The position numbers were made by a program. Below are positions 55,701 to 58,700 of a stretch of DNA of 64,000 bases, piece by piece. Numbering within the stretch: position 1 is the first letter of the stretch; every line of letters begins with the position of its first letter. Source of the DNA: Escherichia coli (GTDB lineage: Bacteria; Pseudomonadota; Gammaproteobacteria; Enterobacterales; Enterobacteriaceae); NCBI RefSeq assembly GCF_041886205.1, contig NZ_CP169029.1. One strand, given 5' to 3'.

Positions 55701-58700
55701 TGCACCGCTTGATGTCCATGTTTCAGTGGATCGGGTAAATGGTTATAAGCAGAGTCTGGAAGATCATAATATTGCAGTGCGTGATGAATGGATTGTTGAT
55801 GGCGGTTATACCCATGAAACAGCACTGCAAGCCGCGAGAGAATTATTAAGCCAGTCACCGTTGCCAGAAGCCGTATTTGCCACTGACAGCCTGAAATTAA
55901 TGAGCATTTATCGTGCGGCAGCAGAGAAAAATATTGCTATTCCGCAGCAGTTAGCGGTGGTGGGTTATAGTAATGAAACGCTGTCGTTTATATTAACGCC
56001 TGCACCGGGCGGCATCGATGTTCCGACGCAGGAGTTAGGTCAACAAAGCTGTGAGTTATTATTCCGCTTAATTTCTGGAAAACCGTCACCACAGAATATT
56101 ACCGTTGCCACGCATATGACGCTGAAATAAATACCAGCTACCTTGCCTGAATGCCGGATGCGATGCTAGCGCATCTTATCCGGCCTACATTTATAGATCG
56201 GATAAAGTACTCGCGTACTCGCGCCGCATCCGGCAATTTAGCCCATTATCAGAACGAGTAATTTACGCCGACACCCGCATAATGGAATTTATCGCTGTCG
56301 CCTTCGTCGTGATCCTGCCACTCAAACGCGTATTCCAGCGAAACGGAAAGCCCGTTCTGGAAATCATAACCGTAAAATAAACCTACACGGTTAAAATCAT
56401 GGCCTTCACGTTCAATATCATCCTGCCAGTCCCAGTTACTCCAGCGATCCAGCCCAATGCGCGTATACGGCGTCACCGAGTGGTTGCCGAGCGTCAGCGG
56501 CAAATAGGCGCGAATTTCTTGCGTGGAAAACTCACCGTTATTGCGGCTGTCGTCCATATTGAAGCCGCGCTCGAGATAATAGTTCACTCGCAAGGCAACC
56601 GTTTCGTTGAAGGTATATTGCAGACCTGTTTCCGTTTCGACACGGGTATCAGCGTAACCGGTAGTGTTCAGATCGTTGGCAAATTTATACATCGACAACC
56701 AACCGTTGAAACGTAAATCGTCAGTCAGTTTCACATCCCAGTCTGGCGCGATTTTCCAGCGCTGCATATTCGCCGTGTCTTTACCCGGTTCATCAACGTA
56801 GTGATAACCATAATTACGGAAACCGCCGGTCAGGCCGAAACTGAAATCATCGTTTTCGAGGAACTGATAATGCACCTCCAGCTCCGGGCGATCAAACCAC
56901 GTTCCACGTTTACCCGCGCTATAATCTACCGGCCCTTCCTGATAATAGGCCAGAGCAATTCTCCACGGCCCGTTGGCGGCATTAAAATAGACTGAAGGCT
57001 CCGCCAGCCCATCCATATCTTCGCCATAACCCTCGACGTTTTCTATTTCGTACATCGCGCCGATATTAAAGTGCCAGTCGTTCTTTTCCTCGGCCTGTGC
57101 GCAGGCCATTCCCGCACACATCACCAGTGCGGTACAGGGTAATAACTTTTTCATTATTGTTCCTTGTATTATTCTGGGGGAATGCCTTCCCCCTGTATTT
57201 AGCGAATTGCTATTTCCGTTTCTGCATCAAAGAAATGACATTTCGTCATATCAAAATGAATAGTGATATTTTCTCCTGCATGATAATCATTTAACGCACC
57301 AGCACGGACCACTAACTCGTGCCCCCCAACCGTGGTGTAGAGCATAAATTCCGCACCGGTTAATTCTGCCACGCTAATTTTGGCGGAAATGTTATTTTCC
57401 TCTTGCGCGTCCGGATGAATATCTTCCGGACGTATTCCCATCACGATGGGCTTATGCAAACTTCCCTGTGTTTTCAGAACCGCTAATTTCTCTTCGGGAA
57501 TGGTTAATTTAAGCGTTTCCGTAACGAATTTATCGCCATCGATCGTGCCACGAATAAAATTCATCGCCGGTGATCCAATAAATCCGGCAACAAACATATT
57601 CGCGGGTTGGTTATAAACGGTTTTCGGCGCACCTACTTGCTGAACAATCCCGTCTTTCATAATCACAATCCGCGTCGCCATGGTCATCGCTTCGGTCTGA
57701 TCGTGGGTCACGTAGATCATGGTGGTGTTCAGTTTCTGATGCAGCTTGCTGATCTCTGCGCGCATTTGCACGCGCAGCTTGGCATCAAGGTTAGAGAGCG
57801 GTTCATCCATTAAAAACACGCCCGCTTCGCGTACAATCGCCCGCCCAAGCGCCACTCGCTGACGTTGCCCGCCGGAAAGCGCCCCCGGCTTACGTTTCAG
57901 GTACTCACGCAGGCCGAGAATTTGCGCCGCCCAGTTCACCCGCTCATCAATCACCTCTTTGGCGATTTTTTGCATCTTCAGACCAAACGCCATGTTGTCG
58001 TAAACCGTCATATGCGGATACAACGCGTAGTTCTGGAACACCATCGCTATATTGCGTGCTTTGGCTGGAACGTCATTCATTCGTTTGCCGTCGATCAACA
58101 GATCGCCGCCGCTGATCTCCTCAAGCCCGGCAATCATGCGCAGGGTGGTCGACTTACCGCAGCCCGACGGGCCGACAAACACGATGAACTCTTTATCGGC
58201 AATTTCCAGGTTGAAGTCCTTCACCACATGCACCTGGTTATCGTAGATTTTTTGAATATGTTGTAACGAAAGCTGAGCCATGTTGATTCCTTTGCTATAC
58301 GTTTTGCCAGAAGGCCGATAACCGCGGCCAGGTGAGTGATTCCGTTGAAGGCAACAGTAATTGCGCCCCGGTTAAGCCCGCGCCGATCCCCACCGAGCGC
58401 ATACCGCTGGCGTTAATGGCGTCAATGCCCGCCTGCGCATCTTCAATGCCGATACATGCCTGCGGCGGCACGCCCAGCCCTGCACAGGCGGCGAGAAAGA
58501 TTTCCGGGTCCGGTTTCGAGTTTTTAAGTTGGGAAGCATCCGCGCAGAAGGTGAAAAACTCACGCAGCTCCAGTGCATCTAAAATCGTCGGCGCATTGAG
58601 GGAGACAGAAGCCAGCCCTACCGGGATCTGTTGTGCGCGGAGATCTGCCAGCAAAGAGCGAATGCCGGGTAGAACAGCGTTGACCGTCAACTCGCGCAGT

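What the first reader, a model, noticed from the sequence alone, without database searches (positions are those of the whole stretch)
57199..58281. ycjV is an intact 360-codon ABC ATPase gene here (recalled as a pseudogene in K-12)
The frame is uninterrupted with complete Walker A, signature and Walker B motifs and a MalK-like C-terminal domain. With ycjU, ycjT, ycjS, ycjR, ycjQ and ompG this gives an apparently complete sugar catabolic and uptake module with its own porin.
Basis: partly seen in the sequence, partly recalled or inferred. Interest (0 to 1): 0.3.

Follow-up and report, generated by a model that had tools for sequence, protein, structure and literature searches.

The report
Intact ycjV sugar-transporter ATPase gene
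This E. coli strain carries the normal, unbroken version of ycjV, the ATP-burning subunit of a poorly understood sugar importer; the laboratory strain K-12 is the exception because it has lost one G from a run of six, which is already recorded in the K-12 annotation.

Summary
Window 57199-58281 (minus strand) is an uninterrupted 360-codon ORF. It encodes a MalK/UgpC/MsmX-type ABC ATPase with all catalytic motifs and a complete C-terminal OB/TOBE domain.

K-12 MG1655 annotates ycjV (b1318) and ymjB (b4524) as pseudogene pieces. The lesion is a 1-bp deletion in a G6 run (window 57322-57327, codons 319-320). It gives a 322-aa product that lacks the last 40 residues.

The intact form is the species norm:
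- About 4,600 of 5,426 complete E. coli genomes carry G6.
- 369 genomes carry the exact K-12 G5 81-mer, and 63 of the 65 rows listed have K-12-sized chromosomes, mostly named laboratory strains.
- dN/dS among seven divergent lineage alleles, K-12 and B excluded, is 0.007-0.08.
- K-12 with the G restored is identical to the E. coli B allele, whose protein has published ATPase activity.

The pseudogene status is well known. Engineers use "the pseudogene ycjV locus" as a neutral integration site.

The window ends inside ycjQ, so ycjP/O/N/M lie outside it. They are intact in a genome that is 100% identical over the last 15 kb of the window.

The verdict is real, ordinary and already known. The one testable angle is that the frameshift may explain why K-12 fails to grow on kojibiose.

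The parts
57199..58281 (-). ycjV coding sequence, 360 codons plus TAA. It encodes the ATP-binding subunit of the putative YcjNOP-YcjV sugar ABC importer.
   Evidence: ORF. Pfam ABC_tran, OB_MalK and TOBE_2. 100% identical to the annotated CDS WP_000057977.1 in strains G3/10 and wlxctx60.
58150..58173 (-). Walker A / P-loop codons 37-44 (GPSGCGKS).
   Evidence: Motif scan. Coordinates converted from codon numbers.
57865..57879 (-). ABC signature LSGGQ, codons 135-139.
57802..57819 (-). Walker B VFLMDE, codons 155-160, including the catalytic glutamate.
57322..57327 (-). G6 homopolymer (C6 on the + strand), codons 319-320 (GGG GGG). K-12 has lost one G here.
   Evidence: Pairwise alignment with NC_000913.3. 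Sequence read. G6 is present in all eight intact alleles compared.
57202..57321 (-). Codons 321-360, the 40 C-terminal residues (HELVV...ETEIAIR). K-12 has lost them from YcjV; they correspond to the 'ymjB' fragment. They make up the last 31 of the 70 residues matched by the TOBE_2 domain.
   Evidence: the K-12 product is 320 native residues plus TS, 322 aa in all. TOBE_2 spans 282-351. This segment aligns through the C-terminus of the solved MsmX structure 6YIR.
57155..57198 (-). 44-nt ycjV-ompG spacer. It holds a conserved 7-bp-stem hairpin (GGGGGAA GGCA TTCCCCC, 57176-57193) and the ompG ribosome-binding site. No U-tract follows the hairpin on the coding strand.
   Evidence: MFE is -13.6 kcal/mol. 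The hairpin is conserved in eight alleles, with one C-to-T change that keeps a G-U pair.
56249..57154 (-). ompG, the monomeric porin and last gene of the ycjM-ompG operon.
   Evidence: ORF. Annotated in the identical genome. Operon and YcjW repression are described in PMC6599011.
55132..56130 (+). ycjW, the LacI-family repressor of the operon, transcribed convergently with ompG (their 3' ends face each other).
   Evidence: ORF. Annotation. Repressor function in PMC6599011.
58295..58954 (-). ycjU/pgmB, beta-phosphoglucomutase.
58951..61218 (-). ycjT, kojibiose phosphorylase (GH65).
61215..62270 (-). ycjS, D-glucoside 3-dehydrogenase.
62280..63068 (-). ycjR, 3-dehydro-D-guloside 4-epimerase.
63086..64000 (-). 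ycjQ, D-guloside 3-dehydrogenase. Only the 3' 915 nt are present; the gene is cut by the end of the window.
   Evidence: The frame is open to the window edge. The full gene is 1053 nt in the identical genome.

Best explanation
Window 57199-58281 (minus strand) is the wild-type, functional allele of E. coli ycjV. It encodes the nucleotide-binding subunit of a CUT1-type (MalK/UgpC/MsmX-like) carbohydrate ABC importer. The inferred mechanism is as follows. Two YcjV copies dock on the permeases YcjO and YcjP. ATP binding and hydrolysis at the Walker A, Walker B and LSGGQ sites drive uptake of a glucoside delivered by the lipoprotein YcjN, after the sugar has crossed the outer membrane through OmpG. 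The sugar is then processed by YcjQRS, YcjT, YcjM and YcjU. The whole ycjM-ompG operon is repressed by YcjW. K-12 laboratory strains differ by a recent single-G deletion in a G6 run. This deletion truncates the C-terminal OB/TOBE domain at residue 320. The gene identity, its intactness, the nature and position of the K-12 lesion, its distribution, and purifying selection are shown here. The pairing with YcjNOP, the transported substrate, and loss of function of the truncated K-12 protein are inferred.
For: The ORF is intact and has all ABC motifs and complete OB_MalK and TOBE_2 domains. NCBIfam places it above the cutoff of the UgpC-type subfamily NF008653, at 484 bits against 432. It aligns full-length to the solved B. 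subtilis MsmX structure 6YIR at E = 8.8e-150. Synteny is pgmB-ycjV-ompG with ycjW next to ompG on the opposite strand, and identity to E. coli ycjV is 95.6-100% in 4,980 genomes. K-12 has a 1-bp deletion in the G6 run. 369 genomes carry the exact K-12 G5 81-mer; 63 of the 65 rows listed (some genomes appear in both lists) have K-12-sized chromosomes of 4.46-4.79 Mb, mostly named laboratory strains. About 4,600 genomes carry G6. dN/dS is 0.007-0.08 between seven divergent lineage alleles (K-12 and B excluded), with at most one non-synonymous change in codons 320-360. K-12 with the G restored is nucleotide-identical to the E. coli B allele WP_000057985.1. That protein was reported to accumulate stably and to retain ATPase activity (PMC7658222). 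The operon structure, YcjW repression and kojibiose as an in-vitro effector come from PMC6599011.
Against: No direct evidence exists for transport by YcjNOP-YcjV. YcjN bound none of the sugars screened, kojibiose included (PMC11543891). ycjV lies five enzyme genes away from ycjOP, so the pairing rests on operon membership only. Sugar ATPases of this family can be shared or exchanged between importers, so the K-12 lesion may be phenotypically silent. It has not been shown that the 322-aa K-12 product is inactive. The permease and binding-protein genes are not in the window; they were checked only in a genome identical over the last 15 kb.
Confidence: 0.9

Rival explanations
1. The difference is technical rather than biological. 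Either the K-12 G5 or the window's G6 would then be a homopolymer sequencing or assembly error.
For: The lesion sits in a 6-base homopolymer, which is a classic error site. Two non-K-12 assemblies (2014C-3051 and 08-00022, both STEC-sized chromosomes) show the same one-G loss on unrelated ycjV alleles. One of them is otherwise identical to the window allele, which could reflect assembly error.
Against: The G5 allele occurs in 369 separate complete assemblies, including many separately sequenced K-12 sublines: MG1655, C600, DH5alpha, DH1, J53, NCM3722, AG100 and RR1. NC_000913.3 annotates it deliberately as ycjV plus ymjB. G6 occurs in about 4,600 genomes and in all eight divergent intact alleles examined.
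Confidence: 0.02
2. The gene is intact but physiologically dispensable. Another CUT1 ATPase (MalK or UgpC) would energise YcjOP, or the operon would be cryptic. In that case the intact-versus-frameshifted state would have no phenotype.
For: One ATPase serving several importers is documented in Firmicutes (PMC7658222). From general knowledge, MalK and UgpC are reported to be exchangeable in E. coli. The operon is strongly repressed by YcjW in laboratory media. ycjV has been inactivated repeatedly in natural isolates by IS1, in four independent events. K-12 engineers use the locus as neutral.
Against: Strong purifying selection acts over the whole length, including the C-terminal 40 codons, with dN/dS of 0.007-0.08. 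The gene is retained at full length in 4,980 of 5,426 genomes. A paper cites signature-tagged mutagenesis screens that list ycjV among genes involved in EHEC colonisation of cattle (PMC8009128).
Confidence: 0.2
3. The K-12 frameshifted gene still makes a working ATPase, because the catalytic domain (residues 1-235) is untouched. 'Pseudogene' would then be an annotation call rather than a functional one.
For: All catalytic motifs lie upstream of residue 200. The truncation removes only residues 321-360. No secondary decay has accumulated in K-12: there are zero extra differences from the E. coli B allele.
Against: The cut falls in the middle of the TOBE_2 beta-sandwich, so 31 of its 70 matched residues are lost. 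This segment is conserved through to the MsmX C-terminus, including the HFFD-ETE motif. From general knowledge of MalK, the C-terminal domains hold the dimer together. The absence of decay is equally explained by the lesion being very recent.
Confidence: 0.15

Closest known systems
E. coli YcjV, full-length form (RefSeq WP_000057977.1; WP_000057985.1 in E. coli B/BL21)
   Same: The window protein is identical to WP_000057977.1 as annotated in strains G3/10, wlxctx60 and 55989. The genomic context is the same: pgmB-ycjV-ompG, with ycjW next to ompG on the opposite strand.
   Different: Nothing differs from WP_000057977.1. It differs from the E. coli B protein by two residues, A232 (S in B and K-12) and G273 (E in B and K-12).
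K-12 MG1655 ycjV (b1318) and ymjB (b4524) pseudogene pair
   Same: Same locus and 99.4% nucleotide identity. The first 320 codons are co-linear.
   Different: K-12 lacks one G of the G6 run. Its product ends as ...VGG-TS after 322 aa, and the last 40 codons are left out of frame as 'ymjB'. The window has G6 and a full 360-aa frame.
Bacillus subtilis MsmX (PDB 6YIR), a multitask sugar-importer ATPase
   Same: It is the best solved relative, E = 8.8e-150, aligned end to end (1-360 against 1-365). It has the same NBD plus OB/TOBE architecture. The source paper reports 64% identity.
   Different: YcjV could not replace MsmX for the AraNPQ or GanSPQ importers in B. subtilis. It also lacks the charged residues (D77, R104, E110, K154 of MsmX) conserved among the exchangeable Firmicute ATPases. 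YcjV is operon-encoded rather than an orphan gene.
E. coli MalK (PDB 1Q12, 2R6G) and UgpC
   Same: Same family and domain order. The MalK structures match at E = 8e-100 over residues 1-353. The UgpC-type subfamily model is passed.
   Different: YcjV is below the MalK equivalog cutoff, at 431.6 bits against 568, so it is a paralogue and not MalK. No evidence exists for MalT or EIIA-Glc regulatory contacts.

Membership tests
ABC transporter nucleotide-binding domain (Pfam PF00005) | Walker A, Q-loop, LSGGQ signature, Walker B with catalytic Glu, D-loop and H-switch, all present in order | tested here: met
   ABC_tran scores 110.5 bits against a cutoff of 25. All six motifs were located.
MalK/UgpC/MsmX-type (CUT1) sugar-importer ATPase | C-terminal regulatory domain of OB_MalK plus TOBE fold after the NBD | tested here: met
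   PF17912 scores 55.3 bits (cutoff 27) at residues 236-288. PF08402 scores 39.8 bits (cutoff 21) at 282-351 and covers profile positions 2-76 of 76.
MalK/UgpC/MsmX-type (CUT1) sugar-importer ATPase | Scores above a curated family threshold | tested here: met
   NCBIfam subfamily NF008653 scores 484.3 bits against a cutoff of 432. The alignment to solved MsmX, AlgS and MalK chains is full-length.
MalK proper (NCBIfam equivalog NF008233) | Score at or above the equivalog cutoff of 568 bits | tested here: not met
   The score is 431.6 bits. The protein is a paralogue, not MalK.
E. coli ycjV orthologue | Position between pgmB/ycjU and ompG in the ycjM-ompG operon, with near-identity to annotated ycjV | tested here: met
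   Synteny is shown. Identity is 95.6-100% over the full length in 4,980 genomes.
YcjNOP-YcjV importer complex | Cognate permease genes (ycjO, ycjP) and binding-protein gene (ycjN) present and intact in the same operon | tested here: inconclusive
   The genes are not in the window, which ends inside ycjQ. They are present and unflagged in strain wlxctx60, which is 100% identical to window 49000-64000.
YcjNOP-YcjV importer complex | Physical and functional coupling of YcjV to YcjOP, and ATP-driven transport of a defined substrate | not testable with these tools
   Only soluble ATPase activity of the E. coli B protein is published. The ligand of YcjN is unknown.
K-12-type ycjV pseudogene | G5 instead of G6 at codons 319-320, giving a frameshift and a stop after 322 aa | tested here: not met
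   The window has G6 at 57322-57327 and an open 360-codon frame.

The most novel reading that the evidence does not exclude
The K-12-specific ycjV frameshift, and not the choice of sugar, may be why MG1655 cannot grow on kojibiose as sole carbon source even when ycjW is deleted. If so, strains with the intact allele, such as this one, could reveal the physiological substrate of the YcjNOPV/OmpG system, which is still unknown. Of the 28 papers in the searched library that mention ycjV, only four also contain 'pseudogene'. The three read use the locus for strain engineering or list a mutation in it, and the fourth, by its title, is also strain engineering. None links the lesion to the growth failure.
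Probability: 0.2. Interest if true: 0.35.

Novelty: already known. Interest (0 to 1): 0.08.

Why it matters
The finding matters little as a discovery. The intact allele is the species norm, and the K-12 pseudogene is in the reference annotation and is exploited routinely as an integration site.

Its practical value is as a reminder. Biochemical and genetic work on the ycj cluster has been done largely in K-12, including the kojibiose phosphorylase, the guloside pathway and the YcjW regulon. In K-12 the transporter's only dedicated ATPase is truncated. Negative growth results in K-12, such as no growth on kojibiose, may therefore not apply to wild E. coli.

Repairing one G in K-12, or using a wild strain, is a cheap control before concluding what the pathway's natural substrate is.

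Tried and rejected
- **Sequencing artefact.** Rejected for K-12. The G5 allele is in 369 separate assemblies of many K-12 sublines. It could not be excluded for two STEC assemblies that carry the same loss.
- **G5 allele exclusive to K-12.** Rejected, because two non-K-12 backgrounds carry it.
- **Terminator or promoter between ycjV and ompG.** The scan found only a hairpin with no U-tract on the coding strand. Promoter-like hits were at the level of the shuffled controls, 3 found against 3.7 expected. I rejected an independent ompG transcription unit as unsupported.
- **Common clonal IS1 deletion.** I asked whether the IS1-linked ycjM-ycjV deletions seen in passing are one widespread clone. 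Each junction occurs in a single genome.
- **Primary papers.** I tried to read Mukherjee et al. 2018 (PMC5953851) and Fajardo et al. 1998 (PMC107455). Neither is held. Statements about lab 'cog' mutants and ompG rest on my own recollection.
- **Structure prediction and large protein-database searches.** I did not run them. Pfam domain boundaries and the end-to-end alignment with solved MsmX already locate the truncation, and the extra cost was not justified.

Full report
**1. The observation**

Window 57199-58281 holds one uninterrupted ORF of 360 codons on the minus strand. It starts with ATG and ends with TAA. The start lies 13 nt after the stop of pgmB/ycjU, with an AGGA 9 nt upstream of it. 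The stop lies 44 nt before the ompG start.

Pfam finds three domains:
- ABC_tran at residues 21-162 (E = 1.3e-31).
- OB_MalK at residues 236-288 (E = 1.2e-14).
- TOBE_2 at residues 282-351 (E = 5.1e-10), covering essentially the whole profile.

All catalytic motifs are present:
- Walker A GPSGCGKS, residues 37-44.
- Q-loop, residues 82-87.
- Signature LSGGQ, residues 135-139.
- Walker B VFLMDE, residues 155-160.
- D-loop SNLD, residues 163-166.
- H-switch, residues 192-194.

The only omission is the strand, which is minus.

**2. The K-12 comparison**

NC_000913.3 annotates ycjV (b1318, 1380821-1381789) and ymjB (b4524, 1381789-1381902) as pseudogenes. PGAP flags the same CDS as 'frameshifted' in C600.

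The K-12 stretch is 1082 nt against 1083 nt here. A global alignment shows five substitutions, of which two change an amino acid (A232S and G273E). It also shows one gap: K-12 has GTTGGGGGCAC where the window has GTTGGGGGGCAC. The G6 run occupies window 57322-57327, which is codons 319-320.

The K-12 reading frame therefore gives 320 native residues followed by Thr-Ser-stop, 322 aa in all. It loses residues 321-360. That cut removes 31 of the 70 residues matched by the TOBE_2 domain. The lost stretch aligns well with the C-terminus of the solved MsmX structure, including the HFFD-ETE motif.

**3. Which allele is the exception?**

- Full-length matches to the window gene occur in 4,980 of 5,426 complete E. 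coli genomes, at 95.6-100% identity. In the rows listed, the matches with the full 1083-nt footprint are named 'ABC transporter ATP-binding protein'.
- An 81-nt probe carrying the K-12 G5 state matches exactly in 369 genomes. About 4,600 genomes match with a one-base difference, and the rows listed for these have an 82-nt footprint, which is the G6 state.
- together list 65 exact-match rows, and some genomes appear in both lists. 63 of the rows have chromosomes of K-12 size (4.46-4.79 Mb). Most are named K-12 laboratory derivatives, such as MG1655 sublines, C600, DH5alpha, DH1, J53, NCM3722, AG100 and RR1.
- The 'chicken meat' strain SY3626C1 carries K-12 protein accessions for the neighbouring genes and is probably a C600-type transconjugant.
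- The remaining two are STEC-sized human-associated isolates, 2014C-3051 and 08-00022. They carry the same one-G loss on non-K-12 alleles. 08-00022 is identical to the window allele minus one G, and 2014C-3051 differs from K-12 at 21 sites. This is either recurrent slippage at the homopolymer or assembly error. I cannot tell which.

**4. Evidence that the intact gene is functional**

Pairwise Nei-Gojobori estimates were made on seven alleles from divergent lineages (the window, O157:H7, 55989 and four other isolates), leaving out the closely related K-12 and E. coli B alleles. Pairs differ by 16-42 synonymous changes but only 0-7 non-synonymous changes, giving dN/dS of 0.007-0.08. Codons 320-360 show at most one non-synonymous change.

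K-12 with the G re-inserted is nucleotide-identical to the E. coli B allele, which encodes WP_000057985.1. So the lesion is a single, recent event with no secondary decay. That exact protein was expressed by Leisico et al. It accumulated stably and retained ATPase activity, although it could not replace B. subtilis MsmX (PMC7658222).

The closest solved structure is MsmX (6YIR, E = 8.8e-150, end-to-end alignment). AlgS, archaeal MalK and E. coli MalK follow. NCBIfam puts the protein above the cutoff of the UgpC-type subfamily model (484 bits against 432). It is well below the MalK equivalog cutoff (432 bits against 568). It is therefore a CUT1-type sugar-importer ATPase and a paralogue of MalK and UgpC.

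**5. Context and likely mechanism**

Window 49000-64000 is 100% identical to E. coli wlxctx60, isolated from Asian black bear faeces in Japan. [quoted passage not shown]

Inside the window I can see the following:
- ycjW, 55132-56130 (+).
- ompG, 56249-57154 (-).
- ycjV, 57199-58281 (-).
- pgmB, 58295-58954 (-).
- ycjT, 58951-61218 (-).
- ycjS, 61215-62270 (-).
- ycjR, 62280-63068 (-).
- The 3' 915 nt of ycjQ, 63086-64000 (-).

The permease and binding-protein genes, and ycjM, lie beyond the window edge.

Published work shows that YcjW represses the whole operon. YcjW binds upstream of ycjM and near the ycjT/ycjU junction, and kojibiose releases it from DNA in vitro (PMC6599011).

The most likely mechanism is inferred from family knowledge and operon membership. 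OmpG admits a glucoside across the outer membrane. The lipoprotein YcjN delivers it to YcjOP. A YcjV dimer powers import by ATP hydrolysis. The phosphorylases, dehydrogenases, epimerase and beta-phosphoglucomutase then convert the sugar to glucose-6-phosphate. The substrate itself is unknown: YcjN bound none of the sugars screened, kojibiose included (PMC11543891).

**6. Comparison with what is known, and novelty**

Everything in the finding is already on record. The reference annotation lists the K-12 pseudogene. Metabolic engineers integrate cassettes at 'the pseudogene ycjV locus' (PMC10380740; see also PMC11731478). An adaptive-evolution study lists a mutation in 'ycjV pseudogene' (PMC4786092). 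A comparative study notes an intact YcjV-like ABC transporter in K-12-like isolates that is 'missing' from MG1655 (PMC8009128). The window protein is an existing RefSeq non-redundant protein found in several strains. The classification is 'already known'.

**7. What remains mildly interesting**

MG1655 fails to grow on kojibiose minimal medium, and deleting ycjW does not help (PMC6599011). In the searched library, only four of the 28 papers mentioning ycjV also contain 'pseudogene'. The three I read are strain engineering or a mutation table, and the fourth, by its title, is also strain engineering. None connects the truncated ATPase to the growth failure.

A one-base repair in K-12, or use of a wild strain, would test whether the transporter defect masks the pathway's physiology. 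I give this about 0.2 probability, for three reasons:
- YcjN did not bind kojibiose.
- Another ATPase could substitute.
- The natural substrate may be something else.

**8. Rivals considered**

- A sequencing artefact is excluded for K-12 by the number of separate assemblies.
- Dispensability or redundancy of YcjV remains possible. Four independent IS1 disruptions in natural isolates and the neutral use of the locus in K-12 support it. Strong purifying selection argues against it.
- Residual function of the 322-aa K-12 protein cannot be excluded computationally. It is unlikely, given that the cut falls in the middle of the TOBE_2 domain.

**9. Verdict**

The feature is an ordinary wild-type gene, and its contrast with K-12 is already documented. 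Interest is low.

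Noticed in passing
L006 3230-4231 (DXMF6-3R); L007 1964-3170 (E3); L015 2624-4482 (E89); L016 2376-4234 (H9Ecoli): There are four independent IS1 events in ycjV in natural isolates. Two are simple insertions, after about nt 636 and nt 768 of ycjV. Two are IS1-flanked deletions that remove ycjM' through 'ycjV and leave ompG directly downstream of IS1. In all four, IS1 has the same orientation as the operon. Each junction tested is unique to one genome. From my own recollection, this resembles the laboratory 'cog' deletions that switch on ompG.
   Followed up: partly
L017 288-1369 (2014C-3051); L018 288-1369 (08-00022): The same G6-to-G5 loss as in K-12 appears in two non-K-12, STEC-sized assemblies on different ycjV alleles. 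One is identical to the window allele apart from the missing G. This is either recurrent slippage at the homopolymer or assembly error, and it is unresolved.
   Followed up: partly
window 57176-57193: A conserved perfect hairpin (GGGGGAA-GGCA-TTCCCCC, -13.6 kcal/mol) lies in the 44-nt ycjV-ompG spacer. No U-tract follows it on the coding strand, so it is not an obvious terminator. B2-type alleles carry a C-to-T change that keeps a G-U pair. Its role is unknown; it could act in mRNA stability or processing.
   Followed up: partly
window ~48371-48400: About 2.4 kb between mpaA and mppA is absent from the window and from strain wlxctx60, compared with strain G3/10. In G3/10 this stretch holds a dehydratase gene fragment, ycjY and pgrR. 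The two BLAST segments overlap by 30 nt at the junction.
   Followed up: no
window 57199-58281: YcjV scores above the curated cutoff of the NCBIfam 'UgpC' subfamily model (484 bits against 432), although E. coli has a separate ugpC. That model name should not be read as a substrate assignment.
   Followed up: no
window 57199-58281 (literature): PMC8009128 cites signature-tagged mutagenesis screens that list ycjV among genes involved in EHEC colonisation of the bovine gut. I did not read the primary screens.
   Followed up: no
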